Positions 6,167 through 30,028 are shown, numbered from the stretch's first letter. The stretch is 64,000 nt of DNA from a bacterium (GCA_029778565.1 JAKOQC010000187.1:2615-66614), one strand, 5' to 3'. Translations and numbers: made by a program. Notes: generated by a model from the sequence alone, not told the origin.

Positions 6167-6186
6167 AAACCTGATACGCAATTCTC

Positions 6187-6417: not shown

Positions 6418-6429
6418 CGAAGGAAGTTC

Positions 6430-6543
6430 ATGAAAGTACGAGCTGGTGTAAAAAAAATGTGTGAAAAGTGCAAGATTATCCGTCGCAAAGGTCGAGTGAC
6501 GGTAATTTGTGATAACCCACGACATAAGCAGAGACAAGGGTAA
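6430..6543 (+). CDS. rpmJ: 50S ribosomal protein L36
   Basis: Translated by hand because it falls below the ORF-track cutoff. The product is [37 protein letters not shown] (37 aa) with the C-x2-C...C-x-H zinc ribbon. It sits between infA and rpsM. Confidence 0.8.
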
Positions 6544-16403: not shown

Positions 16404-16540
16404 GTAATATAATGATACCAGTATTTCGGTCCTTTTTTATAGTATTACTATGAATGCTGAAATATCGCTGAATGGTTAGCATAACTATAAATATTAATCA
16501 TTTTCTGATAAAATGAGCTAGTTCGACAGATAGAATATCG

Positions 16541-16586
16541 TTAGCCATTAAACCAATTACACTAAAGGGGTGTAGCTCAGTTGGCT
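16541..16586 (+). repeat. direct repeat copy A (leader plus first 21 nt of tRNA-Trp)
   Basis: 46 nt identical, bar one T/C, to 16667..16712: TTAGCCATTAAACCAAT(T/C)ACACTAAAGGGGTGTAGCTCAGTTGGCT. Confidence 0.8.
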
Positions 16587-16636: not shown

Positions 16637-16666
16637 AAAGATAGAACATTCAAAAAACAAATATTA

Positions 16667-16712
16667 TTAGCCATTAAACCAATCACACTAAAGGGGTGTA
16701 GCTCAGTTGGCT
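16667..16712 (+). repeat. direct repeat copy B (leader plus 5' part of the intact tRNA-Trp)
   Basis: See copy A. Confidence 0.8.
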
Positions 16713-16768
16713 AGAGCGTCGGTCTCCAAAACCGAAGGCCGCGGGTTCGACTCCTGCCACCCCTGCCA
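16692..16768 (+). tRNA. tRNA-Trp (anticodon CCA), CCA encoded
   Basis: Acceptor AGGGGTG/CACCCCT. Loop CTCCAAA. T-arm GCGGGTTCGACTCCTGC. Confidence 0.85.
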
Positions 16769-18340
16769 TTGTGAAATTACAGCCGAAATAGCGGCTGTTT
16801 TCGCTTTTATAGAAGGGAATTCTTTAGTTCTAACCAACTCTAATTCTTTCTCCAGTGCGGGGTATGCTTTTGCGATTGGTACAAGCCATGGATGAGGTGT
16901 AATAGTAAGTTTTTTATCTTTTAGTTGTAATTCTGTGCCCAGTTCTAACATTATTTGTTTGCGCTTTGAGCTATCACCAAATTTGAAGTTTGAATGTGCG
17001 TGAGTGGCAAAATTAATGGCAGTTGTAGCAATATCCGCCCAATCTTTAGAGCGTTGCTCTGTATCTCTAAGCTTTATAGTTAATTGTTCAATCTTTTCTT
17101 CTAGTATTTCTTTCTTCTCAATAAATTTGGATTCTGTTATTAAATTGCGTGTTGCTAAGTCTATTAAGCTATCTAATTGGTTTTGGGCGGCCAATATGCT
17201 CTTATGTTGCATTTCATATATATCAGTTCTTTTATTTGATTCCTCACTATTTAATCTCTGGATTACCTTAAGAGCCCATTGTTCGAACTCTGGCAAAATA
17301 GTATACTCCGATAATATTTTCTCCATTTCTATTTCAAGTACAGATTCTTCAATAAATCTAGTTTGACTACAGTTGAGCTTTCGTTTTTTCCGAGTACAAT
17401 GGTAATACTTATAAGTCTTAAGTTTGTTACTTGATTTTATTAGCTTAGTTTTTTCTTCAGCGGTAATTGCACATCCACATTCTCCACATTTCATTAAACC
17501 TGAATAGGCGAAGTCATGGCTACTTGCTCTTGGCTTTCCTTTTTTACCCAGTATAATTTGCGCTCGATCGAATTCTTCTAAAGAAATCATAGCTTTGTGC
17601 TTGCCCTCGTAAACAACATCATTTCGCACAAGTTTGCCTGCATAAAATTGATTAGTAAAAATTTTGTAAACAGTGCTTAAGGCAATTGGTTTACCACCAC
17701 TTTTTCTGTGCTTTGGCGTAATGTAACCCCATTCATTTACAGCAATGTCCCAAATTTTATGCACGGGTAATTGATCAATTAATAAAAGATCCCACATTCT
17801 TCTTATAAGAGGGAACCTAACCTTATCAATGTCGGCCATTTTAGTTACTAGGTTATTTGTATATCCTTGAGGTACAAGGCCCGTAGGGCCTCCCAAGGAG
17901 AGTTTTGTGTCATTGCCGCGCTTTACATCCCTACTAAGCTTTGCAGACTCGTATTGCCCCTGCGAAAGTGCCATTTGTAACATCCAAATGCCTTCTGGTG
18001 AGTTATCAAAATGGTAAGAACAAAATTTGAGATCTTTGATAATTGATTTTCTAACCCTAGATGTTATTCGGGCTGCATCTACTTCGTTACGAGATAAGCG
18101 ATTAGGGTGCCATGCAATAATAGCATCGGCTTCGCCATTATCAATAACCTCTAGCATTTGGTAAAAATCATCTCTAACATCTTCTGTAAACGCAGATTTG
18201 TGTTCCTCAAAGTGTTTTACAATGTGTAAATCAGAAAACTGCTCTTGTATCTTTTGTTTTTGCGCATATGTAGATAGAACCTGTCTTTCAGGATCTTCTG
18301 TTGATTTGCGCGTATAAGCTATGTATCGTAGTTTTTTCAT
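16703..18340 (-). CDS. large serine recombinase (resolvase/invertase catalytic domain, recombinase domain, zinc ribbon, coiled coil)
   Basis: N-terminal YTRKSTEDPERQ with the Ser nucleophile. Central recombinase domain. CGECGC...YYHCTRKK zinc ribbon. The start is taken at MKKLRYIAYTRKST (18340). The 3' end runs antisense across tRNA-Trp. Confidence 0.85.
   Translation of the reverse strand: MKKLRYIAYTRKSTEDPERQVLSTYAQKQKIQEQFSDLHIVKHFEEHKSAFTEDVRDDFYQMLEVIDNGEADAIIAWHPNRLSRNEVDAARITSRVRKSIIKDLKFCSYHFDNSPEGIWMLQMALSQGQYESAKLSRDVKRGNDTKLSLGGPTGLVPQGYTNNLVTKMADIDKVRFPLIRRMWDLLLIDQLPVHKIWDIAVNEWGYITPKHRKSGGKPIALSTVYKIFTNQFYAGKLVRNDVVYEGKHKAMISLEEFDRAQIILGKKGKPRASSHDFAYSGLMKCGECGCAITAEEKTKLIKSSNKLKTYKYYHCTRKKRKLNCSQTRFIEESVLEIEMEKILSEYTILPEFEQWALKVIQRLNSEESNKRTDIYEMQHKSILAAQNQLDSLIDLATRNLITESKFIEKKEILEEKIEQLTIKLRDTEQRSKDWADIATTAINFATHAHSNFKFGDSSKRKQIMLELGTELQLKDKKLTITPHPWLVPIAKAYPALEKELELVRTKEFPSIKAKTAAISAVISQWQGWQESNPRPSVLETDALAN
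16778..16810 (+). terminator. hairpin (ACAGCCG-aaata-GCGGCTGT) plus T-tract after tRNA-Trp
   Basis: Read directly. A near-identical stem recurs at 20486. Confidence 0.5.
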
Positions 18341-18481
18341 TGTTATACCAAAATGGACGGCTCTGGTAGATCCAATCACATACTGAAACAGCTGTTTACT
18401 GGCAGAGCCGCCCATTAAGGCAGCAAAAAAGCCGTTTCAATGTATTATGTTTTGGATCTACATAACCATTATCCTCCTATG

Positions 18482-18613
18482 TTATTCATTTATCAATTCG
18501 ATCATCCTAATCATATGTTCAGCCTGCTCATTTGCTTCCTGCAAAGATAGAACAGTGCCATATTCTCTATAGTGTATGTCTATGTATTTCTCTAATTCTT
18601 CGTCCGTTAACAT
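18482..18613 (-). CDS. hypothetical 43-aa protein (MLTDEELEKYIDIHYREYGTVLSLQEANEQAEHMIRMIELINE)
   Basis: Hand-translated. Its ATG lies 2 nt after the stop of the upstream RHH gene. It is acidic and helical, so a recombination directionality factor is one possibility. Confidence 0.3.
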   Translation of the reverse strand: MLTDEELEKYIDIHYREYGTVLSLQEANEQAEHMIRMIELINE

Positions 18614-18615
18614 TG

Positions 18616-18783
18616 TTATTCTCCAGTGTCATCGTTTGCGTATATATCTAAGTTATTAACATCGATATAATTTGCTACAAGTTCATTAATAATTTGTGTC
18701 ATAGAAACATTCGTATTAGCTGAATGTATTTTTAATATTCTATGTAGCTCTGTATTTAACCTAGCGTATTTGCTCTTTTTCAT
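18616..18783 (-). CDS. ribbon-helix-helix (CopG/Arc-like) DNA-binding protein, 55 aa
   Basis: Hand-translated: MKKSKYARLNTELHRILKIHSANTNVSMTQIINELVANYIDVNNLDIYANDDTGE. A basic beta-strand is followed by two helices. RBS GGAGAAAG lies 6 nt upstream. Confidence 0.5.
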   Translation of the reverse strand: MKKSKYARLNTELHRILKIHSANTNVSMTQIINELVANYIDVNNLDIYANDDTGE

Positions 18784-18799
18784 TGTTCTTTCTCCTTAC

Positions 18800-19035
18800 A
18801 GTGTTTATTTGTTGTGCCTAATAGCTCCACTGAGTAGCTACCCTCCCTTCTCTCCAATCCCTCTGCCCGAATGCGGGTGTCTAGTGCCTGCCCTATCAAA
18901 AGGTGATAGTTCCTGCCAGTACCCATTCGGTATAGAGTAAATTGTCGGTTGGTCGGTTCGTAGTCCCTGGAATTAACCACCTGCTACGACTCAGGCCCGA
19001 AGCGATTACTCGCTCTATAACCTAGTATGTATAGG
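18800..19035. other. GC-rich, hairpin-dense non-coding block (candidate structured RNA or long leader)
   Basis: Clearly higher G+C than its flanks. Several perfect local hairpins (CCCG-aatg-CGGG; CTATCA-aaagg-TGATAG; AGCGA-ttact-CGCT). No convincing ORF. Lies upstream of the RHH gene on the minus strand. Confidence 0.25.
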
Positions 19036-19244
19036 GCTTGACAAGTTGTTAGGTTAATTTGGAAGAAAATTAATAAATAGTAAAAATACCTTTATAAAGG
19101 CAAAATAAATACACATAAGCCTCTAACTGTCAGTTTTTTTTTTATGTTAATTTATATCTGTTAAGATATAAAAAGTAGTAATTATATATGTTCTAAAAAG
19201 CATATATTTTACAGAGTGAAAGGGTACTAATAGGTGTACTAGGA

Positions 19245-19273
19245 GAATAAAAAAAGCCCCCAGTAGGGGCTAG
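19245..19273 (-). terminator. rho-independent terminator for the 19317..20033 gene
   Basis: AGCCCC-cagta-GGGGCT stem with an A8 tract on the plus strand (T-run on the minus strand). Confidence 0.6.
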
Positions 19274-19316
19274 CAAAATTTATTGACTGGACTATTAGAT
19301 CAACCTACATCAATGG

Positions 19317-20033
19317 CTAGTTCTTAACATAGAAGTCCATAAGTTTTCCACCGCGATATCTTAAGTCCATATTAACGCTATCCGCTGGCCAGACTTCGTA
19401 ATTGATGATGTAATGGCCTGCTACAGGAAAATCTAAAGCCCCACCACAAACTGGCACGCCAGCGTCTGGATAAACTGTAGGGTTTGCCGAGAAACTACCA
19501 CCAGGTATCGAGAAGGTTCCATCTGGACCAGCAGTTATGGAACAATCCTTTAGTGGTAGAAATGTGCCTGTTACATTATCCTTAGCGACTATAGATAGTA
19601 CTAGGCCTGCAGGCAGAGGGCAGGGATTGCTCGCTGTTCCACAGGTTGTTATATTCTTCTGGTAAATATAAACTCCCCAATTTGTTACTTTTGGAGCTGG
19701 GGCGGAAGGTGATGGCTGTGCCTGATTACCACCCTTATTTGAACTAGTACTTGCAGAGCCTGTATTTGAACCCGTACTAGAACTAGGATTGGTGCTATTT
19801 GGATCTGGGTTATTAGCTAATAATGATTTGTCTTGAGAATTATTAGAAGTATCACCTCCAGATTTGTTTTCTGCATTCTGCTTATTGATAGAGGCGTGAG
19901 TATGATTTCGTCTAGCGTAAATTGCGCCAGTAGTTAATAATGCGGCTACTGACACCAACCCTATAAAAGCGAGCGACGATAAAATAAGATGACCTTTTGC
20001 AGAAACAATGACCTTACTAATAAATGTTTTCAT
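19317..20033 (-). CDS. membrane-anchored hypothetical protein with S/T/N/G-rich linker and Cys-containing C-terminal domain
   Basis: N-terminal TM helix, about 80 aa of low-complexity linker, then a domain of about 120 aa with 6 Cys. No family recognised. Confidence 0.55.
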   Translation of the reverse strand: MKTFISKVIVSAKGHLILSSLAFIGLVSVAALLTTGAIYARRNHTHASINKQNAENKSGGDTSNNSQDKSLLANNPDPNSTNPSSSTGSNTGSASTSSNKGGNQAQPSPSAPAPKVTNWGVYIYQKNITTCGTASNPCPLPAGLVLSIVAKDNVTGTFLPLKDCSITAGPDGTFSIPGGSFSANPTVYPDAGVPVCGGALDFPVAGHYIINYEVWPADSVNMDLRYRGGKLMDFYVKN

Positions 20034-20280
20034 GTTAGTTGAATCTTGCTCTATTTCTTATTATTTGTCAATATACGTACTCCTTCTATGCCTTGTTAAT
20101 AACCAGTTGACAAGTGTGCTAAAATAACATACAATCTTGATGATATAAAAATCAAAACATCCCTCAAGGATGTTTTTTATATTCAAACAAGAATAAATTA
20201 GTTGTACAATAATGTTTACATACGTAGTATTACGCTGTAATATATAAGCATAAGCATATAAGCTTACTGGCAGGTGATAC

Positions 20281-20310
20281 AAAAAAAGCCCCTAATAGGG
20301 GCTTTTTTTG
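20281..20310. terminator. bidirectional hairpin A7-AGCCCC-taat-AGGGGCT-T7
   Basis: Read directly. Same stem family as 19255. No obvious gene ends here. Confidence 0.4.
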
Positions 20311-20319
20311 TTAAGAAGA

Positions 20320-20348
20320 TTGTAAGCATATCCGAAATGTGATATTAT
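20320..20348 (+). promoter_or_regulatory. sigma70-like promoter TTGTAA-N17-TATTAT upstream of the tRNA-like gene
   Basis: Hexamers and 17-nt spacer read directly. The hexamers end about 35 nt before the tRNA 5' end. Confidence 0.4.
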
Positions 20349-20383
20349 GGTTCCAATCTTGTGGTATCTGGCGTCTCATTGGG

Positions 20384-20459
20384 GCGTTAGTACAGCGGCA
20401 GTACAGGTAGCTTTATCACCTGCCAGACAGGAGTTCGAATCTCCTACGCTCCACCAAGT
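20384..20459 (+). tRNA. non-canonical tRNA-like gene (76 nt, CCA encoded, aberrant anticodon arm)
   Basis: Acceptor GGGGCGT/ACGCTCC. D-arm GTAC-agcggca-GTAC. T-arm AGGAG-ttcgaat-CTCCT. The only good anticodon-region helix (CAGGT/ACCTG) encloses a 9-nt loop AGCTTTATC and collides with the D-stem, so no 7-nt loop with a standard anticodon can be drawn. Confidence 0.5.
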
Positions 20460-20485
20460 GGGGCCGCCCAGACTCACGAGGTAGC

Positions 20486-20512
20486 AAACAGCCGCGAAAG
20501 CGGCTGTTTTGC
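20486..20512 (+). terminator. terminator hairpin AAACAGCCGC-gaaa-GCGGCTGTTT plus T-run
   Basis: Read directly. Paralogous to the hairpin after tRNA-Trp. Confidence 0.55.
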
Positions 20513-20621
20513 ATATAAAAGTATAATTGCTATAAAATTATGTCTACCAATCAGATTGGCCTATTGTTAAGGTTCTATGTGTGCCTTATAATCTACATAT
20601 AACAAATTTAATTTTTATCCA

Positions 20622-21269
20622 ATGATATATTGTACTAACTGTGGTAAACAGATTGATGATGATAGTAAATTTTGCCCTTTTTGTGGTGCCGCGGTAGTAG
20701 AAAATGAACAGGCAGACGTAGAAGATAACACTCAACAGAATAGTCCGCTTTGGGATAAGTTTGTCGAGATTAGAGATGCCAAGGGTGAGAAGCGAGAGAA
20801 ATACCTAAACTTTATTCCAGATGCCACCTGGACAGTTATGAAAAACATGCGTGAGAACGTATTAGACGAGCTGAAACAGGCATATCCTGAAGAAATCGGC
20901 AATTTGCCTTATAAAGACGTAGAAATTATTCTTAGCTTCTTCTCAATTGCCCAAAGAGATGGATATATAGTAAAACTATCAAACAGGCTTCTCAAAGACT
21001 CAAGAATCAAAAAAGCCAAAGACTTAACCGTAGACCATCTTGTCTCTCGTTGGCAGAGAGAGCTTGATATGGATGTTGAAAAAGTTACTGAGCCAGAAGA
21101 GCTAAACATATTGAATCTTATTAGTGTGTTTGATATTGACCAAGTTCTAGAGGACGAGAAAATAAAAGAACTTCCAAATAAAGTTATTGAGTCAATCAAA
21201 ACGGACTTTTATAAACTGACTTACTGGGGGTTCATTTTGGCACTTGTTGAGGAGAAACTTCAAAAATGA
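20622..21269 (+). CDS. zinc-ribbon-domain protein (N-terminal CxxCG...CPFCG), cytoplasmic
   Basis: 215 aa. First of four translationally coupled genes with ATGA overlaps. Confidence 0.55.
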   Translation: MIYCTNCGKQIDDDSKFCPFCGAAVVENEQADVEDNTQQNSPLWDKFVEIRDAKGEKREKYLNFIPDATWTVMKNMRENVLDELKQAYPEEIGNLPYKDVEIILSFFSIAQRDGYIVKLSNRLLKDSRIKKAKDLTVDHLVSRWQRELDMDVEKVTEPEELNILNLISVFDIDQVLEDEKIKELPNKVIESIKTDFYKLTYWGFILALVEEKLQK

Positions 21270-21868
21270 CATCAAAGTATTGTCCAAAGTGTGGTGCTAA
21301 ACTTGCACCTGGTGCAAAGTTTTGTGCTAAATGTGGGCATCCAGTTAAGCAAGAGGAAACAAACGTCGTAAAAAAAGAGCCAGAAGACACCAAGTCAGTT
21401 GCTAGTTCCACGGATAGTACCCAGAATAAGTATGAAGGTGTAAATGGCTGGCTGTTGTTATATACAATTGGTCTAGTAGCAGGCATTGGATTCAGTATCT
21501 TTAACTTTATATCTTATGTTGCATTGGCATTAAAGTTTGACGTAAATGCTGAGGGTGCGAGTGTCGTTATTGGAATATACCTTATACTTGGTTTTGGTTT
21601 CGCAATTTTGCTTGCTATCCAAAGCATTGCACTAGTTCAAATTATCCGTAGGAAGAAGTCAGCTAAGATTTTTGTAGTAATATCATTGGTTTACGGTTTT
21701 CTATTATATCTTGCTGATGCTGGGATTGCGGGCTGGGCGTACGAGCTTGCAAAAGAGACCGCTCCATCTGACCTTTATGGTGGTGCGGGAAGAGCATTTT
21801 TCGCTTTAGCTATTTGGCTACCTTACTTCTTGGTTTCGAAACGAGTTAAACAAACCCTAGTAAAATGA
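21266..21868 (+). CDS. zinc-ribbon-domain membrane protein
   Basis: 200 aa. N-terminal CPKCG...CAKCG followed by 4 to 5 TM helices. Confidence 0.55.
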   Translation: MTSKYCPKCGAKLAPGAKFCAKCGHPVKQEETNVVKKEPEDTKSVASSTDSTQNKYEGVNGWLLLYTIGLVAGIGFSIFNFISYVALALKFDVNAEGASVVIGIYLILGFGFAILLAIQSIALVQIIRRKKSAKIFVVISLVYGFLLYLADAGIAGWAYELAKETAPSDLYGGAGRAFFALAIWLPYFLVSKRVKQTLVK

Positions 21869-22479
21869 AAAAATGTGGTCACTGTGGGGCAGAAAACCCC
21901 GATTCTGCCAAATTCTGCAAGAAATGTGGCGAGTCTCTGGATGATGCTGTAGAGGGTGAGATTGTTGATGCCCCAAAAGCAATAAAGAAAGAGAGCAAAG
22001 TAAAGACCATCTTTGAAGGTATAGGCGGCTTCCTGATTATGTTGGTTGTCTTTGCGGCACTAATTTTTCTAATCTTTGCATTTATAAAAGGTGCAACTTT
22101 CCTTAGTGAAAAGCTGTTGCCGATTCTAGTAAAAATAGTTATTCCACTTTTAATAATAGAGTTATGTGTTGTTTTACCTTTAGCCTTATCAAAAAAACTA
22201 AAAGGTACAGCGGGAGTAATCGTTTATATTGGCTCATATGTATATGGCTTAACAGCATGGTTAATAGGCTTTATTGTGACCTTATACTATTGGGGAGTTT
22301 TCTGGGTGATAGTCGGCCTTTTCATAGCTGGAATTGGGGTAGCGCCTTTTGGGATAGTGGCAGGAGGCCTTAATGGCCAGTGGGCAGTAGTATTTAACTT
22401 AATTGTACTAATTGTGTTAACCTACGGCTCCAGAATGCTTGGTGCGAAGCTAGCCGAAGATGCTGACGAAGGTGTATGA
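21865..22479 (+). CDS. zinc-ribbon-domain membrane protein
   Basis: 204 aa. N-terminal CGHCG...CKKCG followed by multiple TM helices. Confidence 0.55.
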   Translation: MKKCGHCGAENPDSAKFCKKCGESLDDAVEGEIVDAPKAIKKESKVKTIFEGIGGFLIMLVVFAALIFLIFAFIKGATFLSEKLLPILVKIVIPLLIIELCVVLPLALSKKLKGTAGVIVYIGSYVYGLTAWLIGFIVTLYYWGVFWVIVGLFIAGIGVAPFGIVAGGLNGQWAVVFNLIVLIVLTYGSRMLGAKLAEDADEGV

Positions 22480-22775
22480 AGAAGACAGACACAACTCTTT
22501 GGGTATCTATTGGAATAATTGCATCTGTAATTGTTATTATCTTTGTTGTCGTTATTCTAGTAATTGCGAGCAAAGGGTCAAGTACTGATTCGATAACCGA
22601 TACTTGTTCAAATCCACAAATTAAGGGCAACATTAGCAAATCTGGTGAAAAAATCTATCACAAGCCTGGTGATATGTATTACTCACAAACCGAGATAAAC
22701 GAAAGTGCTGGTGAAAAAATGTTTTGTACTGAAAAAGACGCCCAAGACGCTGGCTGGCGACATTCTAAGATTTAA
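22476..22775 (+). CDS. small membrane-anchored protein with conserved C-terminal module (GNISKSGEKIYHKPGDMYY...FCTEKDAQDAGWR)
   Basis: 99 aa: TM helix plus a 60-aa domain. From memory, the motif resembles a short module found at the C-termini of some Firmicutes secreted nucleases. This is unverified. Confidence 0.45.
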   Translation: MKKTDTTLWVSIGIIASVIVIIFVVVILVIASKGSSTDSITDTCSNPQIKGNISKSGEKIYHKPGDMYYSQTEINESAGEKMFCTEKDAQDAGWRHSKI

Positions 22776-22839
22776 GAAATAAAAACATTAGACTATTTTT
22801 TGGTATACTAATGTTAATAATACTTATCTAGGAGAGTGT

Positions 22840-23760
22840 ATGGATAAAGAAAACCATAAGTTAGAAAAGGCTGAAGATAAACAAGTAAAACTAGATGAAC
22901 AGGGGAATAAGTCTGAAGATGGAATTGATAAACTTCAAACGAAACCATGGTATAAAAAAACCTGGGTAATAATACTAGCCTTGGTATTATTTTTCCCGTT
23001 AGGCCTTTTGCTGACTTGGCTATCCGATTGGAAATTATCAATGAAAATACTCGCAACTGGTATAGTGATTGTCTTATTTTCACTACTTATTTACTCAAGC
23101 ATCACAGCAAAACCTCTTATTACAGTTAATAGTCCGAATAATGGTCAAGAAATAGAAACAGAAAGTATTGATATTACTGGTAACGTCAATCCCGCTTGGT
23201 CCAAGCTCCAAGTTAACGATATGAACGTAGAATTAAAACCCGATGGTACGTTTAGTTCCAATGTTAAATTGCAACAGGGACAAAATACAATCAAATTATC
23301 AGCAATAAACTCTGGTAAGACAACAGAGTTAACAGTAGGGGTTAAACGATTAACTGCTGCAGAAATCGCAGCTCGAAAAGTTGCTGAAACTCCAAAACAA
23401 GCAACCCCAACTCCCACAGAAAAAGAACTAAGCTACAGCGTAATCAGTGAAAATAAACGAGGAACCTTAAATCGAGTAGAGGTTTATACTACGGAAACAT
23501 CAGATGACAGATTGATTAAACTAAATGATAAACTATTAGATCAATATAAACCTGGCCTAACCATACTATATATTGATTACTTTAATGATAAAACGGTTGC
23601 AAGCGATTATTTTAGTAAGCAAAACGACCCGAATATTAGTGAAGCAGAGAAGGATCAACTCTATACACATTACATTGCTAACTTGGTCTATAATACTAAT
23701 AGTGGGTTAAAAGAATTAGTTAGACAGGGTGATAATCAGAAAGTATTGAAAACATACTAA
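22840..23760 (+). CDS. membrane-anchored hypothetical protein with Ig-like beta domain
   Basis: 306 aa. Basic N-terminus, two TM helices, then a beta-rich segment (ITVNSPNNGQEIETESIDITGNV...) and an alpha/beta C-terminal domain. Confidence 0.5.
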   Translation: MDKENHKLEKAEDKQVKLDEQGNKSEDGIDKLQTKPWYKKTWVIILALVLFFPLGLLLTWLSDWKLSMKILATGIVIVLFSLLIYSSITAKPLITVNSPNNGQEIETESIDITGNVNPAWSKLQVNDMNVELKPDGTFSSNVKLQQGQNTIKLSAINSGKTTELTVGVKRLTAAEIAARKVAETPKQATPTPTEKELSYSVISENKRGTLNRVEVYTTETSDDRLIKLNDKLLDQYKPGLTILYIDYFNDKTVASDYFSKQNDPNISEAEKDQLYTHYIANLVYNTNSGLKELVRQGDNQKVLKTY

Positions 23761-23849
23761 GCCAGTACTTGTGGCTTTGTTAGTATAATTGCGTTTCTAA
23801 CTTCTTCTATAGTGCCCTGCCAAAGTACTAAAGTACTTATGCTTAAATC

Positions 23850-24356
23850 ATGAAAAATAATACAACGGTTAAATGCCCAAGTTGCGGGAAAGAAGTAATT
23901 GGCCTCGAGCGTGAGGTTCGTACTGTATATCCAGACGATGCTGCAGAGATTATCAAAGATGACCCAGACAGCAAAAAGATTGAAACGTGGGGCCCAGATT
24001 TTATACGTCTCGGCAAACAACGCTACTTTGTACGCGTTATGTTACCAGTAAAATTAGATGTTGGTCATGAGTTTAGGTTTGGCGTTTGGATGGAGGTTGG
24101 TCAAGAGACAATTACTGATTTAAAAAAGGTCTGGAATAGCTCTGAATATGTAAAGGTTAGCTTTGAAGGAATACTTGCAAACGCTGTTCCCCCATGGGGA
24201 GATACAATCCTTGGTGCTGAATGTAAGGCAGAAGTTCGTGATGCTAAAAGTGTACCCTTTATTAAATCTTCTAATAATTTAGAGCTTTCAGAAATACTAA
24301 GCAAGCCTACGTCAGTTCATGAAATAGAAACAGTTATAGCGGATGTTTGGAAATAA
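23850..24356 (+). CDS. DUF2199-like protein (N-terminal CPSCG zinc knuckle)
   Basis: 168 aa. The pattern VKCPSCGKE...RFGVWMEV recalls the DUF2199 family. Assigned from memory. Confidence 0.45.
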   Translation: MKNNTTVKCPSCGKEVIGLEREVRTVYPDDAAEIIKDDPDSKKIETWGPDFIRLGKQRYFVRVMLPVKLDVGHEFRFGVWMEVGQETITDLKKVWNSSEYVKVSFEGILANAVPPWGDTILGAECKAEVRDAKSVPFIKSSNNLELSEILSKPTSVHEIETVIADVWK

Positions 24357-24505
24357 TTCCTAAACTGTTAAAATACATATAGTAGTCCTAATATTGTCCA
24401 AAACGCCGTTCCAAGATAAAACCAGCATATGCCTGGTTTTTTATTACTTTTATGGCAATAAATTGCAAACAAAAATATGTTAAGATATAAGTTAATATAA
24501 GCTTT

Positions 24506-25564
24506 ATGAAACAAAAGAAGAATACAGATAGTTCTACAATAACTAGGTTATGTATTGTAATAAGTTGTTTTGTGTTGGCAGCTGTAAGCTTTTCGGTTTG
24601 GTACCAGCGCAATACTCAATTGGCAACATATAATTTAGTACAGTCAAAAATTAGTGAGCTCGAGGCACTACAAAAAGAAAACGAATTACAAACTGTTGAT
24701 ACACAAAAGCTACATCAGCAAGCAGAAACTGCCAAACAACAGATAAATAAGTTTGATTTTATTGCATCGTATCGAAATCTAGAACAATTAAAAAGCCTAA
24801 CCACTACCGATCAAGCTTTGCTTGATGAGGCAATATATAAACGCCAGGCCGAAGAGGCTGCACAGGCAGCCCTGGCCAAAAAAAGAGAAAGTGCGGTTGC
24901 TGCCAGCGGTAGCACCAATCAGCCGGGAACATTTGTACTGCCAATAGTTATGTATCATAAGCCACCAGCTAATTTTGCCGAACAAATGGAGGTGCTTAAG
25001 AATAAAGGCTATACAACGGTCCATATGAATGATGTAGCCAGTTTTATTGCTGGTCGAGCAAAACTACCACCAAAAGCTGCGGTTATTACATTTGATGATG
25101 GCTTTGCGGTGCAAAAAGATGTGATGGGTATATTACAAAAGAACAATCAAAAGGCTACACTTTATCTTATTGAAGGGGGTGGCATGAGCCATTATTGTAT
25201 TGGTCTTTTACGCAAAAACACTGCCTGTGGTGATGCTTATCTGTCTGTTCAGGATGTAAAGAATATGTTGAGTTCTAACTTGATCGAAATTGGTGACCAC
25301 ACCGTCGACCATCCCAACATGGCAGCGTTATCTCAGGCTGATCAACAGTTTCAGATAATAACCAACAAAGCTTTTTTAGAACAGACATTTGGGGTGCCAA
25401 TTACCACCTTTGCTTATCCATATGGTAATTATAATGGCACAACTGTTCGCTTACTGAAACAAGATGGGTTTTTGACAGCAGTAACAACCCAACCCGGTGT
25501 AGTACAAAGCTTTGATGAGCCATTATTGTTACGAAGAATACGTTCGACACTAGAGCTTCCCTAG
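24506..25564 (+). CDS. polysaccharide deacetylase (NodB homology domain) with N-terminal TM and coiled coil
   Basis: TFDDG, HTVDHP and FAYPYG motifs. Confidence 0.75.
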   Translation: MKQKKNTDSSTITRLCIVISCFVLAAVSFSVWYQRNTQLATYNLVQSKISELEALQKENELQTVDTQKLHQQAETAKQQINKFDFIASYRNLEQLKSLTTTDQALLDEAIYKRQAEEAAQAALAKKRESAVAASGSTNQPGTFVLPIVMYHKPPANFAEQMEVLKNKGYTTVHMNDVASFIAGRAKLPPKAAVITFDDGFAVQKDVMGILQKNNQKATLYLIEGGGMSHYCIGLLRKNTACGDAYLSVQDVKNMLSSNLIEIGDHTVDHPNMAALSQADQQFQIITNKAFLEQTFGVPITTFAYPYGNYNGTTVRLLKQDGFLTAVTTQPGVVQSFDEPLLLRRIRSTLELP

Positions 25565-25606
25565 ACAAGCGGTTAACCAACTTTCCCTTATGATATAATT
25601 ATACTT

Positions 25607-26284
25607 ATGCTTAAGACAGAGGGCCTGAAAAAGATTTATCATATGGGCGAGGTTATTGTACCGGCGCTGAATAATGTCTTTTTAGAGGTAGAAGATGGTG
25701 AAATGCTTTGTATTATGGGTAAATCTGGTTCTGGCAAGAGTACTTTGCTCCATATGCTTGGGCTGATTGATTCACCTACTAAGGGAAAGGTACTTTTTAA
25801 AGACCAAGATGTTAGTAAATTGTCTGAGTCTCGACGGTCTAAGATTCGTTTAAGTCAGATGGGCTTTGTGTTTCAGGAATATGCCTTGTTACCAGAGCTA
25901 ACAGCTGTAGAAAATGTGTATTTGCCAGCTAAAATGTTAGGTCGTTGGCCAAGTGAGTATCAAGACAGAGCCGCAACCTTGCTCGAATCGCTAGGTCTGC
26001 TCGATAGAATGCACCATCGCCCTCGTGAGCTTTCGGGCGGACAGCAGCAACGCGTGGCGATTGCTCGAGCAATGGTAAACAAACCCGAAATAATCTTTGC
26101 TGACGAACCAACTGCAAACTTAGATACAGCATCGGGTAAACAAGTAATGGATGCTCTGCGTTGGCTTAATGAGCAATTTGGTACTACAATCGTGTTTGTT
26201 TCTCACGATGCCGAAGATAAACTTTATGCCAAACGTGTTATTTATCTCTATGACGGCAAACTTTCAGAAGAGGAAGAAGATTAG
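25607..26284 (+). CDS. ABC transporter ATP-binding protein (MacB/LolD-type)
   Basis: Walker A GKSGSGKST, signature LSGGQQQRVAIARA, Walker B FADEPTANLD. Confidence 0.9.
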   Translation: MLKTEGLKKIYHMGEVIVPALNNVFLEVEDGEMLCIMGKSGSGKSTLLHMLGLIDSPTKGKVLFKDQDVSKLSESRRSKIRLSQMGFVFQEYALLPELTAVENVYLPAKMLGRWPSEYQDRAATLLESLGLLDRMHHRPRELSGGQQQRVAIARAMVNKPEIIFADEPTANLDTASGKQVMDALRWLNEQFGTTIVFVSHDAEDKLYAKRVIYLYDGKLSEEEED

Positions 26285-26286
26285 CT

Positions 26287-27492
26287 ATGCGAACCTTGCA
26301 AGTTGCATTGTTTATAGCTAGTAGATCTATCTTTCGGGGAAATTTTTGGCTTGGTGTAATGACAATTCTTATGATGGTATTGGTGTATCTAAATCTGCTG
26401 TTTGCACCATCATTATTACAGGGTGTAATTTTTCAGATGAACTCAAAATTACGTGATACGTTAGTGGGAGATATTACTGTAGAGAGCTCAACGCCCGGAG
26501 AGCTCATCTCTAACTCTTCTAAATTAGTTGATCAAATAACAACTATTGAAGGAGTAGATGCGGTAACTCAATCACGCACTCTCTCGGCCCAACTGCAACT
26601 CGCAAGCGAAAGAGGAACAGCAGAAGTATCGGGTATTGATGTTGAAAGCTTTAAAGATGTCTATTCTATTCCTAAATATATGATAGAAGGGAGTTTTTTA
26701 ACGCCCGGTGATAAAGACCAGATAGTACTTGGTGCGCAAATTGCCGGTGCTGGTAAGGCCAAGCTCGAACTGTACTCAGATAGCTTAAAAAATGCTCACG
26801 CAGGGGATGTGGTGACAGTAAAATTTGCCAATGGCGTAACTAAAAACTATACGGTAAAGGGTATTTATCAAACCGAGTTTGTACAGGCAGACTTAAAAAC
26901 ACTTATTACCGCCAGTGAGTTTACCCAGGTAATGCCAAGCAGTGTAGACAAAGCTAGTGCAATAAATGTAAAGCTCAAGCCAGGCGCTAATCAAGATAAA
27001 GTAAACCAACAAATACTCGCACTAAACTCAAATATTAAGACACGAACCTGGCAAGAGAGAGCCGGCTTTGTACAGAGCTATACCGAAAGTATACAGGTAA
27101 TTAATAAAATCTTGCGTGCAGTGGCTTTAGTAGTTGGTTTCTTAACAATCTTTATTATTACCTATGTCGATGTGGTAAACAAAAAGCGTCAAATTGGTAT
27201 AGAGAGGGCTATTGGTATTTCACCCCCAACGATTATTTTGGCTTATGAGCTTAGAGCATTGTTTTATACGTTTGTTGGCGCAGTAATTGGTGCAGTGCTG
27301 TTTATTACCGTAGTAGTTCCATTAGAGGCACGCTATCCATTCCATTTTCCTTTAGGGAATGTGTATTTAGATGTAAATACAGGCTTTATGATACGCAATG
27401 TGTTAATTTTATTACTCGTAAGTGTAGCGAGTGCCACGTTACCAGCCTGGCGAGCGGTATATGGAAAAATAGTTGAAGCCATCTGGGGATAG
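26287..27492 (+). CDS. ABC transporter permease, FtsX/MacB-like (4 TM, large periplasmic domain)
   Basis: 401 aa. One TM helix, a periplasmic domain of about 230 aa, then three TM helices. Follows the ATPase after a 2-nt gap. Confidence 0.8.
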   Translation: MRTLQVALFIASRSIFRGNFWLGVMTILMMVLVYLNLLFAPSLLQGVIFQMNSKLRDTLVGDITVESSTPGELISNSSKLVDQITTIEGVDAVTQSRTLSAQLQLASERGTAEVSGIDVESFKDVYSIPKYMIEGSFLTPGDKDQIVLGAQIAGAGKAKLELYSDSLKNAHAGDVVTVKFANGVTKNYTVKGIYQTEFVQADLKTLITASEFTQVMPSSVDKASAINVKLKPGANQDKVNQQILALNSNIKTRTWQERAGFVQSYTESIQVINKILRAVALVVGFLTIFIITYVDVVNKKRQIGIERAIGISPPTIILAYELRALFYTFVGAVIGAVLFITVVVPLEARYPFHFPLGNVYLDVNTGFMIRNVLILLLVSVASATLPAWRAVYGKIVEAIWG

Positions 27493-27516
27493 GAACCCAC
27501 GTGTTACAATACTTGC

Positions 27517-28119
27517 ATGCAAGAAAGCCAAGCCAATAACAAATCTTCTCAAAATCGATATTTTGTCGAGCTTATTGCTCGCGCACAAGACGGCGATGAA
27601 GATGCTTTTGAGGAGCTCTATAATGAATATTTTACTCGGCTATATCGATATGTTTTGATACGAGTTGGTAGTGACGACGAAGCAGACGATATTACCCAGT
27701 TGGTGTTTCTAAAGTTTTACAAAAATCTTACCAATTGGCGCGACCAGGGCTATGATCCTTCGGCATACCTCTACACCATAGCAAGGAGTGTAATTGCAGA
27801 CTATTTTCGCTCGAAAGCACGTAAGGGCAAGAAAGTAGAAAGTTCTGATGCGGTTTTGGAAATTATTGCTGATCCGTCACAAAATTTACAGGCCGGCGTT
27901 ATATCTAATGAAGAGAAGGCGAATTTATATACAGCCCTTCAGCAACTTCCCGAAAACTATCAAGAAGCATTGCTTTTGCGCTACATGGAAAATCTATCAA
28001 GCAAAGAAATAGCACAAATAATTGGCAAAAGTGATGTAGCTACGCGAAAATTGCTCAGTCGTGCTGTAGCAGCATTAACAGAAATAATGCAATTACAAAG
28101 CAAGGAAAATGAAGTATGA
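27517..28119 (+). CDS. ECF-type sigma-70 factor
   Basis: Region 2 (FEELYNEYFTRLYRYV) and region 4 HTH (LSSKEIAQIIGKSDVATRKLLSRA). Confidence 0.8.
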   Translation: MQESQANNKSSQNRYFVELIARAQDGDEDAFEELYNEYFTRLYRYVLIRVGSDDEADDITQLVFLKFYKNLTNWRDQGYDPSAYLYTIARSVIADYFRSKARKGKKVESSDAVLEIIADPSQNLQAGVISNEEKANLYTALQQLPENYQEALLLRYMENLSSKEIAQIIGKSDVATRKLLSRAVAALTEIMQLQSKENEV

Positions 28120-28592
28120 AGTCAACACAAGAAGATAGGGCCGAACAAAACGCACAACAATTGCGAGAGTTTTCTCGTATCTCGCCCAATAAGCGCTCTC
28201 TATTGCGAGATATTGTTAACTCAGCCCCAAGTAATATTAGTCGAGATAACCGACTAGACAATTATTTTGCCGCCGAAAATGAGCAACCTCAAACGACTGG
28301 TTTAGCCAAACGACCATTGTTTCGAGCGTATGCCGGTATAGCAGTAGCTCTGGTGTTGGTTGTTGGCGGTAGTATAGTTTGGTTTGGTCGACAAAGCAGA
28401 ACTTCAGACACACAAAATCAGTCATCACAAGTTGCGGCAAATGGTAAGGTAGCCAATGCTATTAATGCAATTACTCAGCAGGCACAAACAGAATTACAAA
28501 CGGCTCAAACTGCAACTATAGACACTGCAAATTTGGATGCAGTTAATACACAGCTTGGGCAAATGCAGGAGGCAGTAAATGAAAAATTTTAG
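28116..28592 (+). CDS. putative anti-sigma factor (single-pass membrane protein)
   Basis: Coupled by a 4-nt overlap to the ECF sigma. Cytoplasmic N-terminus, one TM helix, Q/T-rich ectodomain. Confidence 0.4.
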   Translation: MKSTQEDRAEQNAQQLREFSRISPNKRSLLRDIVNSAPSNISRDNRLDNYFAAENEQPQTTGLAKRPLFRAYAGIAVALVLVVGGSIVWFGRQSRTSDTQNQSSQVAANGKVANAINAITQQAQTELQTAQTATIDTANLDAVNTQLGQMQEAVNEKF

Positions 28593-29367
28593 TAAAAAAT
28601 TAGTAACCAGTATAGTGACTATTCTAATTACTTTATCTAGCGGTATGACTGCTGCACTACCCGTAAGGGCTGCTAATTCCGAAACCATTCCCGCTGCGCC
28701 ACTGTTTTGCAGTAGTCTAAATACTATTGGTTCACAGATAGAATTAAAACTAAATAACGTTTCTAAACAGTCGCTACCAAATATATATGATCCCACACGT
28801 TTGTCTAACCGTCATTCTGCTATAAAAAAAGAGCTGGCAGAAAAACGTGCGCAGTGGGATAACCAACGAGATGAGCAGTACAACAAGATGTTATCGTTAG
28901 CACAAAATGATGCACAAAAAGCCGCTATTGAGTCATTTAAAACAAGCGTAGAGACTGCAATACTTGTGAGACGTAATAGTGTAGACAATGCAATTAGTGT
29001 ATATTTTAGTCAGACGTCAGATGAGTTAAGTAGTGAGTCTACACAACCCACTAAAGATCGCCAAGATTTTATAACTGCTGTTAAAAATGCTATAACTACT
29101 GCTCAGTCAGATTGTCAAACTAACAAGCCAGCCAGTGAAATTCGTTCGACATTTCAGACGAATCTTTCAGCTGCTCGTACTCGGCTTCAAACCTCAAGAC
29201 AAAATATAGGTGAGATTAAGACACAACTCGAAAATATTCGTAAGCAAGAGGTGCAGAGTATCAATGAAGCAGTTACTGTGTTTCAAGAAAGTATGACTAA
29301 GGCTCGCCAAACACTTATAGATGAATTAAAAAAATCAGGGGCTAACACGGACCAGTTTGCTATTTAA
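28579..29367 (+). CDS. secreted hypothetical protein (signal peptide, helical, Q/S/T-rich)
   Basis: Signal peptide ...ALPVRA-AN. No recognisable domain. Confidence 0.45.
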   Translation: MKNFSKKLVTSIVTILITLSSGMTAALPVRAANSETIPAAPLFCSSLNTIGSQIELKLNNVSKQSLPNIYDPTRLSNRHSAIKKELAEKRAQWDNQRDEQYNKMLSLAQNDAQKAAIESFKTSVETAILVRRNSVDNAISVYFSQTSDELSSESTQPTKDRQDFITAVKNAITTAQSDCQTNKPASEIRSTFQTNLSAARTRLQTSRQNIGEIKTQLENIRKQEVQSINEAVTVFQESMTKARQTLIDELKKSGANTDQFAI

Positions 29368-29412
29368 ATCTGATAACCGGCATAATTTTGTTTTTTACGC
29401 TACAATAAGGAT

Positions 29413-29976: not shown

Positions 29977-30028
29977 ACAGGTTCCTCACTTGCTTCTATA
30001 GTGCTAATGGTTATACTAGGTAGTAAGT

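What the first reader, a model, noticed from the sequence alone, without database searches (positions are those of the whole stretch)
16703..20512. About 3.7-kb putative integrative element bounded by tRNA-Trp and a tRNA-like gene
The element encodes a serine recombinase (545 aa), a 43-aa protein and an RHH regulator, all on the minus strand. A GC-rich hairpin block follows, then a membrane-anchored Cys-domain protein with its own terminator. Two hairpin families recur. AGCCCCnnnnnGGGGCT is at 19255 and 20287. ACAGCCGnnnnnCGGCTGT is at 16782 and 20488. The right boundary is a tRNA-like gene with an abnormal anticodon arm. There are no phage structural genes, so this would be a minimal recombinase-only island. 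The 43-aa acidic protein next to the recombinase is a candidate directionality factor.
Basis: inference. Interest (0 to 1): 0.55.

Follow-up and report, generated by a model that had tools for sequence, protein, structure and literature searches.

The report
Serine-integrase island at tRNA-Trp end
The recombinase block is real, but it is only the left half of a 7,054-base mobile element inserted at the last bases of a tRNA-Trp gene in a Saccharibacteria genome, and its recombinase belongs to a large, undescribed group whose own gene end contains the attachment site.

Summary
Element E1 spans window 16769-23822 (7,054 bp), not 3.7 kb. The tRNA-Ile(UAU)-like gene is internal cargo.

Three comparisons fix the ends:
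- A related Saccharibacteria genome has an empty site.
- Two contigs with essentially identical flanks differ by exactly 7,054 nt, with an 8-bp core (CCCTGCCA, the tRNA-Trp 3' end) at both junctions.
- E1 is 97-100% identical across hosts whose flanking DNA is 68-88% identical.

The large serine recombinase (LSR) carries attP inside its own 3' coding end. Its Trp codon TGG is the antisense of the tRNA's CCA. When integrated, its last 18 residues are antisense tRNA. Joining the two element ends rebuilds the tail seen in relatives whose C-termini are not tRNA antisense (WQGTIEEVRNAI...), including one relative on a 4.47-kb circular contig. Of 120 homologues, 88 end in tRNA antisense.

A terminator hairpin lies inside the recombinase coding sequence and replaces the tRNA's displaced terminator. 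It is present in 9 of 9 relatives.

The locus is a hot spot holding a second LSR element (E2) and recombinase-less single-gene cassettes.

Verdict: a new variant of a known kind. Integration activity, directionality and the role of the 43-aa protein remain inferred.

The parts
16692..16768 (+). tRNA-Trp(CCA), the integration target; intact after integration
   Evidence: ARAGORN and Rfam 70.8 bits. Sequence identical to the tRNA at the empty site in L005.
16761..16768 (.). attL common core CCCTGCCA (last 8 nt of the tRNA, including the encoded CCA)
   Evidence: Same 8 nt at 23815-23822. The two alignment blocks of L020 against L004 overlap by 8 nt, which are the core CCCTGCCA in the junction sequences.
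16779..16808 (+). Terminator hairpin ACAGCCG-N6-CGGCTGT plus T-run, 10 nt after the CCA. It lies inside the recombinase coding sequence (codons KAKTAAISAV on the other strand) and replaces the tRNA's displaced terminator.
   Evidence: Terminator scan. An equivalent hairpin plus T-run with different stem sequences is present in 9/9 family members and ranks among the 0-7 most stable of ~500 windows per gene.
16703..18340 (-). Large serine recombinase LSR1, integrated form, 545 aa. Residues 525-527 (WQG) are the core. The last 18 residues are antisense of tRNA-Trp.
   Evidence: Pfam PF00239, PF07508, PF13408. PHROG integrase 1.7e-64. 1,948 homologues, mostly from Patescibacteria.
18482..18613 (-). 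43-aa protein; shortest member of a conserved small-protein family always placed just upstream of the recombinase
   Evidence: Alignment A2 with the neighbours of LSRs in L003, L004, L007, L011, L013, L016.
18616..18783 (-). 55-aa ribbon-helix-helix (Arc-like) regulator
   Evidence: PHROG 3180 Arc-like repressor 6.1e-05; Pfam ParG 0.009, below cutoff.
18800..19040 (.). GC-rich structured non-coding block upstream of the regulator operon, followed by a 23%-GC stretch. Function unknown (leader, ncRNA or origin).
   Evidence: GC 0.49 vs 0.23. Minus-strand fold z = -2.07. No Rfam hit. 94% identical to L004, against 82-87% for its neighbours.
19317..20033 (-). 238-aa membrane-anchored secreted protein (cargo) with terminator at 19255-19271
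   Evidence: ORF list and terminator scan. No Pfam or PHROG match.
20381..20456 (+). Cargo tRNA-Ile(UAU)-like gene with a C.C mismatch in the anticodon stem and C37. Internal to the element, not a boundary.
   Evidence: It lies inside the 7,054-nt present/absent segment.
20488..20510 (+). Terminator of the cargo tRNA; same 7-bp stem as the hairpin at 16779
   Evidence: Repeat family D3, 87% identity.
20622..23760 (+). Five cargo genes: 215-, 200- and 204-aa N-terminal zinc-ribbon proteins (the 200-aa one with a DUF2569 membrane domain), a 99-aa protein, and a 306-aa Glucodextran_B-domain protein
   Evidence: Pfam and PHROG. The 200-aa gene is only 41% identical between copies of the element that are otherwise 97-99% identical.
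23757..23822 (-). Tail A: the detached 3' end of the recombinase gene (WQGTIEEVRNAIILTKPQVLA*). Its stop overlaps the 306-aa gene by 4 nt.
   Evidence: One of only two matches to the family tail motif in all six frames of the 64 kb. Joining it to 16769 rebuilds the family's non-tRNA C-terminus.
23815..23822 (.). attR common core CCCTGCCA
23823..24413 (.). EB: a 591-bp recombinase-less cassette or remnant. It holds a DUF2199 gene (23850-24356, +) and a second tail (WNGVLDNIRTTICILTV*, 24360-24413, -) ending in CCA.
   Evidence: Absent from L005 and L019. Pfam DUF2199 2.3e-15. Tail motif. Its left end AAGTACTTATGCTTAA recurs after a core in L017 and L026.
24420..24445 (+). The original terminator of tRNA-Trp, displaced 7.65 kb from its tRNA
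   Evidence: In L005 the same hairpin follows the tRNA after 4 nt.

Best explanation
Window 16769-23822 is a 7,054-bp integrative element (E1) of a Saccharibacteria bacterium. A large serine recombinase inserted it at the 3' end of tRNA-Trp.

Shown:
- The element is present or absent as one exact unit, flanked by the 8-bp core CCCTGCCA.
- It is nearly identical in hosts that have diverged.
- The recombinase gene runs across the left junction, so the integrated enzyme ends in antisense tRNA.
- The other half of its 3' end sits at the right junction.
- Joining the two ends restores the C-terminus seen in relatives that do not end in tRNA antisense, one of them on a circular 4.47-kb contig.
- A terminator hairpin is conserved inside the recombinase coding sequence, just after the CCA.

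Inferred:
- The circular form carries attP inside the recombinase gene, centred on the Trp codon TGG (the antisense of CCA).
- The recombinase pairs attP with the tRNA's acceptor/T-arm half-site and exchanges strands within or next to the CCA. The tRNA stays intact and receives the element's terminator.
- The right half of the target site is loosely specified, so new elements can stack next to the tRNA in front of resident ones.
- The RHH protein represses the operon.
- The 43-aa protein, the tail swap, or both help set direction.
- Transfer between cells relies on something outside the element.
For: Boundaries:
- Empty site. In L005 the tRNA-Trp is followed after 4 nt by its terminator and the orthologue of window 24420 onwards. 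Homology to the window stops exactly at 16768.
- Polymorphism. L020 and L004 are 100.000% identical over the left flank plus tRNA (2,019 nt) and 99.978% over 4,601 nt of E2. L020 and L019, from the same L004 contig, are 99.994% identical over 17.5 kb of E2 and the right flank. They differ by a 7,054-nt insertion, with the 8-nt core at both joints.
- The window copy has the same length.

Mobility:
- In 200-nt windows, E1 is mostly 97-100% identical between the window and L004. Host flanks are 68-88% identical.
- At protein level, LSR is 98.9% identical against 82% for ferric reductase.

Site inside the gene:
- 88 of 120 homologues end in W-x4-DSNPRP-type tRNA antisense.
- About 17 have non-tRNA tails; 10 match the (V/I)V(E/D/N)DVRT consensus, and the others (e.g. 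P0002, P0005, P0119) resemble it more loosely.
- ARAGORN confirms that the recombinase 3' end overlaps tRNA-Trp in L007 and L015, and tRNA-Asn in L008 and L010.
- L003 has a 30-nt terminal overlap, so it is a 4,466-bp circle. Its recombinase has an intact tail, and CCCCTGCCA sits at the Trp codon.
- The tail motif occurs only twice in the 64 kb, both times at the predicted place and strand.

Second LSR clade:
- E2 behaves the same way. Its detached tail (WQGIADALQTAAITSNEDYNLKSLVDTFELSGELLAV*) lies at its far end, next to the native terminator, and matches the non-tRNA tails of its relatives.

Terminator:
-.
Against: - No circular E1 and no E1 attP junction was found. Exact searches of metagenome and viral contigs gave nothing.
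- No enzymology was possible. The crossover position is only narrowed to the 8-bp core.
- The att arms show no clear dyad symmetry.
- E1 has no recognisable replication, transfer or virion genes, so how it moves between cells is unknown.
- Conservation of the tail could reflect the DNA site, the protein, or both.
- E1 is always found next to the tRNA but with a different right-hand neighbour (E2 in L004, EB in the window). So either attL of a resident element serves as its target, or E1 came first. The order of events is not resolved.
Confidence: 0.88

Rival explanations
1. One reading: a minimal 3.7-kb recombinase-only island bounded by tRNA-Trp and the tRNA-Ile-like gene, with the paired ACAGCCG hairpins marking its ends.
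For: The two hairpins share an identical 7-bp stem, and each follows a tRNA. Identity to L004 dips between 18400 and 19300.
Against: - The segment that is present or absent is 7,054 nt and runs to 23822.
- L005 lacks everything from 16769 to about 24416.
- No core or tail motif lies near 20512.
- High identity to L004 continues to the right of the tRNA-Ile.
Confidence: 0.02
2. The whole 7.65 kb missing from L005 (16769 to about 24416) is one element, and the internal core and tail at 23815-23822 are an internal relic.
For: L005 lacks the whole stretch. The only contig of the window's own strain also carries E1 and EB together.
Against: - In L004/L019, E1 occurs without EB and ends at the same core.
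- EB has its own tail and CCA.
- EB's left end recurs after a core, next to unrelated genes, in L017 and L026.
Confidence: 0.07
3. E1 is a fixed island that no longer moves. On this view the L020/L004 difference arose from homologous exchange between strains, not from recombinase action.
For: - No circular form was found.
- The integrated recombinase has a foreign C-terminus that might disable it.
- The element is mosaic: RHH 85%, 200-aa gene 41%.
Against: - The junctions fall exactly on an 8-bp core, with no longer homology available.
- The recombinase ORF is intact and 98.9% conserved.
- The same architecture appears in a circular relative.
- E2 is 99.95% identical in hosts that are only ~69% identical.
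Confidence: 0.05
4. E1 is a defective derivative or satellite of a filamentous (inovirus-like) phage that uses the same recombinase family and depends on such a helper to spread.
For: All four relatives found in IMG/VR carry ORFs that look inovirus-like on my reading of their sequences, not by any profile search: a P-loop ATPase, a possible replication protein and small hydrophobic proteins. They sit next to an LSR of this family that, in three of the four, ends in tRNA antisense. This would explain transfer without any transfer genes.
Against: E1 and the circular L003 have no Zot-like ATPase, Rep or coat gene by Pfam or PHROG. No sequence similarity to those contigs exists outside the recombinase.
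Confidence: 0.12

Closest known systems
Serine integrases of phages A118, phiC31, Bxb1 and TP901-1 (large serine recombinases)
   Same: Same three-domain build. Short common core rather than long repeats. Recombinase gene placed at one end of the element, next to the attachment site.
   Different: - At most 27% identity to any isolated phage integrase.
- Only a weak match to A118 among solved structures (1.4e-05).
- The target is a tRNA 3' end rather than a protein-coding gene.
- attP lies inside the recombinase's own coding sequence.
Streptococcal ICEs integrated in rumA, whose attR lies inside the serine integrase gene (PMC4701971); also Mx8 tyrosine integrase intP
   Same: The integrase C-terminus differs between the excised and integrated forms because the site lies within the gene.
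   Different: - The target here is the CCA end of tRNAs, not rumA.
- The elements are 4.5-8 kb with no conjugation genes.
- The feature is shared by two large clades of Patescibacteria recombinases.
- The coding sequence also hides a terminator for the target tRNA.
Filamentous phage phiRSM1/3 of Ralstonia (resolvase-type serine recombinase, 13-bp core at the tRNA-Ser 3' end; PMC4471427) and Mycobacterium AICEs with serine recombinases in tRNA-Leu (PMC3218068)
   Same: [quoted passage not shown]
   Different: - phiRSM uses a small resolvase/invertase-type enzyme, with attP between two genes.
- Here the enzyme is a large serine recombinase with attP inside the gene.
- The core is 8 bp.
- The hosts are Saccharibacteria.
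Tyrosine-integrase genomic islands at tRNA genes
   Same: Use of a tRNA 3' end, preservation of the tRNA, a hot spot with tandem elements, and cargo of accessory genes.
   Different: - No tyrosine recombinase.
- No long duplicated tRNA segment (8 bp only).
- The element replaces the terminator, not part of the tRNA.

Membership tests
Large serine recombinase (serine integrase) | N-terminal resolvase catalytic domain with the active-site serine | tested here: met
   PF00239 1.6e-17, residues 32-171. Motif YTRKST; the S and the R two residues before it are invariant in the 32-sequence alignment.
Large serine recombinase (serine integrase) | Recombinase domain followed by a zinc-ribbon domain | tested here: met
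   PF07508 1.8e-06 and PF13408 4.2e-09. Four invariant Cys. Matches A118 integrase C-terminal-domain chains.
Large serine recombinase (serine integrase) | Coiled-coil motif inserted in the zinc-ribbon domain that controls direction | not tested
   No structure prediction or coiled-coil analysis was run.
Large serine recombinase (serine integrase) | attP x attB exchange at a short core, leaving attL/attR without long repeats | tested here: met
   8-bp core CCCTGCCA at both junctions; empty and filled sites compared. The chemistry itself was not tested.
Large serine recombinase (serine integrase) | Excision needs a separate directionality factor | not testable with these tools
   The 43-aa neighbour is conserved in position, but its function is unknown.
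Integrases with the attachment site inside their own gene (Mx8 intP, rumA ICEs) | Integrated and excised forms encode different C-termini | tested here: met
   Integrated form...SQWQG+WQESNPRPSVLETDALAN. Rebuilt free form...SQWQG+TIEEVRNAIILTKPQVLA, matching the non-tRNA tails of relatives.
Inovirus prophage | Morphogenesis ATPase (pI/Zot), rolling-circle Rep, coat proteins | tested here: not met
   None found by Pfam or PHROG in the nine E1 proteins.
Integrative conjugative or mobilisable element | Relaxase/oriT or type IV secretion genes | tested here: not met
   No such Pfam or PHROG hit in E1. oriT was not searched for.
Tyrosine-integrase tRNA island | Tyrosine recombinase and a duplicated tRNA 3' segment | tested here: not met
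   The only recombinase is serine-type. The repeat is 8 bp.

The most novel reading that the evidence does not exclude
The tRNA-Trp 3' end of these Saccharibacteria may act as a serine-recombinase cassette platform.

What was seen:
- Autonomous elements (E1, E2) and recombinase-less single-gene cassettes stack head-to-tail at the CCA.
- Each unit ends in a recombinase-tail remnant plus the core.
- Three cassettes with unrelated genes share the left end AAGTACTTATGCTTAA: window EB, L017 EC and the second unit in L026.
- The cassette genes point the same way as the tRNA and sit ahead of its native terminator. They could therefore be read from the tRNA promoter, much as integron cassettes are read from Pc.

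What this would imply:
- The cassettes would be moved in trans by resident recombinases.
- The swap of the recombinase C-terminus on integration would act as the switch between integrating and excising forms.
Probability: 0.22. Interest if true: 0.75.

Novelty: new variant of a known kind. Interest (0 to 1): 0.6.

Why it matters
- **Gene flow in Patescibacteria.** These bacteria have tiny genomes, and little has been described about how they exchange genes. E1 is 97-100% identical across hosts whose flanking DNA is 68-88% identical. E2 is 99.95% identical across hosts about 69% alike. So small recombinase-driven elements are moving between species now.
- **A rarely reported design.** The recombinase gene, the attachment site and a replacement terminator for the target tRNA overlap in the same ~60 bases. 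Integration rewrites the enzyme's C-terminus. This links the rarely reported use of tRNA targets by serine recombinases with the rare placement of a site inside the integrase gene. It does so across hundreds of homologues.
- **Practical use.** The rebuilt attP and the tRNA-Trp attB are short and defined. They could form the basis of an integration vector for Saccharibacteria. They also add an unexplored clade to the pool of serine integrases used in genome engineering.

Tried and rejected
- **Free form or other right-hand partners of E1.** An exact search for the tail-A junction found nothing in metagenome contigs or viral contigs.
- **Close relatives of LSR1 in IMG/VR.** None were found. A profile search found four distant, inovirus-like contigs.
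- **Dyad symmetry of attP/attB.** The best arms match 9-10 of 20 positions, no better than elsewhere in the same sequences. This says nothing either way.
- **GC-rich block as a known RNA.** No Rfam match at E <= 1. Fold z is -2.07 on the minus strand and -0.82 on the plus strand. Two sequences give no covariation. Left unexplained.
- **Formal covariation count for the terminator hairpin.** The ungapped MAFFT alignment puts the hairpins in different registers, so I used per-sequence folds with a within-gene control instead.
- **tRNA-Ile terminator as a relic attL of another element.** Rejected. The spacing to the CCA is 31 nt rather than 10, the TTGTGA arm is absent, and no recombinase remnant follows.
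- **My first guess for E2's far end in L017.** I had placed it at 6138-6516. That was wrong, because DsbA, the cation-efflux gene and BacA are E2 cargo. The true end is L017 3586.
- **Source contig of the window.** The look-up via P0241 found no record.
- **E1-less variant of the window's own strain.** None was found. The only contig has E1 plus EB.
- **Literature.** Ten searches found no description of this clade or architecture in Patescibacteria. Durrant et al. 2022 does not mention tRNA.

Full report
**1. What is at the coordinates**

The minus-strand ORF at 16703-18415 is a large serine recombinase. It matches Pfam Resolvase, Recombinase and Zn_ribbon_recom, all above their cutoffs, and PHROG 'integrase' at 1.7e-64.

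Upstream on the same strand lie:
- a 43-aa ORF;
- a 55-aa Arc-like RHH protein;
- a 49%-GC non-coding block at 18800-19040, next to a 23%-GC stretch;
- a 238-aa membrane-anchored protein with its own terminator.

Both hairpin pairs exist, and all four hairpins look like terminators. The 'tRNA-like gene' at 20381-20456 is called tRNA-Ile(UAU). It scores lower in Rfam than its neighbours (48.6 bits), has a C.C mismatch in the anticodon stem, and has C at position 37. So the listed features are real.

The recombinase ORF does not stop before tRNA-Trp. It runs 66 nt into it on the opposite strand, and it also runs across the 16779 hairpin.

**2. A family signature points to the mechanism**

The recombinase has 1,948 homologues at E <= 0.001, mostly from Patescibacteria. 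I read the C-termini of the best 120.
- 88 end in W-x4-(D/E)SN(P/Q)RP-type peptides. This is what a tRNA 3' end encodes on its antisense strand: TGG is the antisense of CCA, and DSN is the T-loop.
- About 17 end in a different tail; 10 match the consensus W-x-G-(V/I)V(E/D/N)DVRT-x-I, and the others resemble it more loosely.

ARAGORN confirms the overlap directly. The tRNA is tRNA-Trp in L007 and L015, and tRNA-Asn in L008 and L010.

The closest homologue apart from the L004 copy is P0002 (59% identity). It has the non-tRNA tail and sits on a Logan contig whose ends overlap by 30 nt (k-1). That makes it a 4,466-bp circle. At its Trp codon the DNA reads CCCCTGCCA, the 3' end of tRNA-Trp.

So the non-tRNA tail, at least in this circular relative, is that of a free form. 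The attachment site sits inside the recombinase gene at the Trp codon.

**3. Finding the true right end**

The family tail motif occurs only twice in all six frames of the 64 kb. Both matches are on the minus strand, to the right of the block.
- 23822-23757: WQGTIEEVRNAIILTKPQVLA*
- 24413-24360: WNGVLDNIRTTICILTV*

The first is preceded on the plus strand by CCCTGCCA (23815-23822). The same 8 nt end tRNA-Trp (16761-16768). Joining 23822 to 16769 rebuilds a recombinase ending ...KAKTAAISAVISQWQGTIEEVRNAIILTKPQVLA. This is the family's non-tRNA C-terminus, and again 545 aa.

**4. Comparative proof**

- **Empty site.** In Ca. Saccharibacteria STL-PAT10 (L005) the identical tRNA-Trp is followed after 4 nt by a terminator and then the orthologue of window 24420-34028. 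Homology to the window's left side stops at exactly 16768. The window's copy of that terminator sits at 24420-24445.
- **Presence/absence in one background.** L020 (Logan SRR25435979) matches L004 (GCA_964570715.1) at 100.000% over 2,019 nt of left flank plus tRNA, and at 99.978% over 4,601 nt of E2. It matches L019, from the same GCA_964570715.1 contig, at 99.994% over 17.5 kb of E2 and the right flank. L020 lacks a 7,054-nt segment. The two alignment blocks overlap by 8 nt, which the junction sequences show to be CCCTGCCA. The window segment 16769-23822 is also 7,054 nt.
- **Recent transfer.** Between the window and L004, E1 is mostly 97-100% identical, while host DNA to the left is 68-88%. 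At protein level, LSR is 98.9% identical, against 82% for ferric reductase and 74% for cytochrome b5.

Its right end, however, is 3.3 kb beyond the tRNA-Ile-like gene, which is cargo.

**5. The embedded terminator**

Integration separates tRNA-Trp from its native terminator by 7.65 kb. Ten nt after the CCA the element supplies ACAGCCG-N6-CGGCTGT-TTTT. This lies within the codons KAKTAAISAV.

All nine family members for which I had DNA (39-59% protein identity) have a hairpin plus T-run at the same place, with different stem sequences. In each gene this is among the 0-7 most stable of about 500 antisense windows, 3-5 SD below the mean. E2's unrelated 3' end carries one too.

The T-run and stem explain the conserved protein motif (K/N)KAKTEAL. 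The hairpin after the cargo tRNA-Ile has the same stem. But it sits 31 nt from that CCA and has no recombinase remnant beside it. I read it as the cargo tRNA's own terminator.

**6. A hot spot with stacked units**

- **E2.** In L004/L019 a second recombinase (LSR2, 515 aa, a different clade) is fused to E1's tail A. Its element, E2, runs 7.9 kb and carries DsbA, a cation-efflux protein and BacA. It ends in its own detached tail (WQGIADALQTAAITSNEDYNLKSLVDTFELSGELLAV*), then CCCTGCCA, then the native terminator. That tail matches the non-tRNA tails of LSR2 relatives. The LSR2 family shows the same split: 40 end in tRNA antisense, 58 stop right after W-C-G, and a few carry IVDAFQT tails.
- **E2 transfer.** E2 is 99.95% identical in L017, whose host genes are only about 69% identical. 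There it sits directly at tRNA-Trp.
- **Position of E1.** E1 is always the unit next to the tRNA. Its right neighbour is E2 in L004 and a 591-bp unit (EB) in the window. Either E1 integrates into tRNA plus whatever follows, so that the right half-site is loosely read, or E1 arrived first. The L020/L004 pair is a single event on either view.
- **Recombinase-less cassettes.** EB (23823-24413) holds one DUF2199 gene and tail B, and is absent from L005 and L019.
  - L017 has a comparable unit after E2: a 127-aa HAD-like gene, WQGLVS*, CCCCTGCCA, then a terminator.
  - L026 has tRNA-Trp, a 229-aa gene, WQGQVNEVSNLLMI*, CCCCTGCCA, and then another unit.
  - Three of these units start with AAGTACTTATGCTTAA.
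  - They are either deletion remnants or non-autonomous cassettes. I cannot tell which.

**7. What E1 carries and how it might travel**

The cargo is:
- a 238-aa secreted or anchored protein;
- the odd tRNA;
- three N-terminal zinc-ribbon proteins, one of them with a DUF2569 membrane domain;
- a 99-aa protein;
- a 306-aa Glucodextran_B-domain protein.

No replication, conjugation or virion gene was recognised. The 200-aa gene is only 41% identical between copies of the element that are otherwise near-identical. That suggests allele replacement or strong diversifying pressure on a surface protein.

All four relatives found in IMG/VR carry ORFs that look inovirus-like, on my reading of their sequences and not by any profile search. 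So the recombinase family serves several kinds of small circular replicon. Transfer of E1 by a helper or by DNA uptake is inference only.

**8. The 43-aa protein**

It aligns with the small ORF directly upstream of the recombinase in L003, L007, L011, L013 and L016, as well as in L004's copy of E1. The shared pattern is M-x-LTD-x-E-I...(F/Y)G-x-x-(L/I)S-x-x-EA...(I/V)RL. The gene is therefore real and linked to the recombinase. A directionality role is plausible but untested.

The tail swap is another candidate switch, by analogy with Mx8 and the rumA ICEs (PMC4701971). But the tail codons are also the P arm of attP, so their conservation may be a DNA constraint.

**9. Comparison with what is known**

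- PMC3218068 calls serine-recombinase integration into tRNA genes rare. It names phiRSM1 (tRNA-Ser; see also PMC4471427) and a group of Mycobacterium AICEs (tRNA-Leu).
- A site inside a serine integrase gene has been noted for streptococcal rumA ICEs (PMC4701971).
- I found no description of either feature in Patescibacteria, nor of the embedded terminator.
- The enzyme is at most 27% identical to isolated phage integrases. Its only match among solved structures is weak, to A118.

I class this as a new variant of a known kind.

**10. Limits**

- All evidence is comparative.
- No E1 circle or attP junction was found.
- The crossover is located only to within 8 bp.
- L003's circularity rests on a k-1 overlap.
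- L020 is a short-read contig, although the same tRNA|E2 junction occurs independently in the L017 MAG.

Noticed in passing
window 16534-16586 and 16660-16712: A 53-nt direct repeat (94% identical). The 34 nt upstream of tRNA-Trp plus its first 19 nt are duplicated 126 nt further upstream, giving a 5' tRNA fragment that ARAGORN does not call. L004 and L005 give matching hits to the upstream repeat, so they probably carry it too. One Logan contig (L002) lacks the 126 nt, which may be a real variant or a collapsed repeat.
   Followed up: partly
window 18800-19040: A 49%-GC block next to a 23%-GC stretch, upstream of the RHH-43aa-recombinase operon. It is better conserved against L004 (94%) than the genes beside it (82-87%). 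Minus-strand fold z = -2.07, no Rfam match, and no covariation from two sequences. It could be a leader, a small RNA or an origin.
   Followed up: partly
window 20381-20456; L003 1084-1158: Both small elements carry an abnormal tRNA. E1 has tRNA-Ile(UAU) with a C.C mismatch and C37. The circular relative has a 75-nt 'tRNA-Ser(UGA)' with no long variable arm, a body 79% identical to the window's tRNA-Thr(UGU), and two mismatches in the anticodon stem. Each is followed by a hairpin with a CGAAAG loop. Their role is unknown.
   Followed up: partly
window 21266-21868 (also 22476-22775 and 18616-18783): Between two copies of E1 that are otherwise 97-99% identical, the 200-aa zinc-ribbon/DUF2569 membrane protein is only 41% identical. 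The 99-aa protein is 70% identical and the RHH regulator 85%. This looks like module replacement or fast evolution inside the element.
   Followed up: partly
window 23823-24413; L017 about 3040-3586; L026 572-1448: Recombinase-less single-gene units flanked by the tRNA-Trp 3'-end core. Each ends in a short remnant of a recombinase tail. Three begin with AAGTACTTATGCTTAA but carry unrelated genes (DUF2199; a 127-aa HAD-like gene; an unknown ORF).
   Followed up: partly
L019 2012-9916 = L017 3586-11490: E2 is a 7.9-kb element with a second clade of large serine recombinase, an HTH_17 (excisionase-like) protein, and DsbA, cation-efflux and BacA cargo. It is 99.95% identical in two hosts whose ribosomal-protein operons are about 69% identical.
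   Followed up: yes
L013-L016 (IMG/VR contigs): Contigs that look inovirus-like on my reading of their ORFs (a P-loop ATPase, a possible replication protein, small hydrophobic proteins); no profile search was run on them. Each carries a recombinase of this family, and three of the four end in tRNA antisense; ARAGORN calls an overlapping tRNA gene (tRNA-Trp) only in L015.
   Followed up: partly
L006 position 1; L001 and L002 ends: Several short-read contigs of related strains break at or inside tRNA-Trp. This fits a repeat or a variable insertion at this locus.
   Followed up: no
L024 2649-7142: In another relative, tRNA-Trp has its own terminator. It is followed by four genes (HEAT-repeat, methyltransferase, two glycosyltransferases) that are absent from the window, L005 and L019. 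No core or tail remnant was seen in the two short stretches inspected at either end of this region.
   Followed up: partly
window 47664-47795: Rfam ribosomal protein L10 leader (47.6 bits, just above the gathering score). Ordinary.
   Followed up: no
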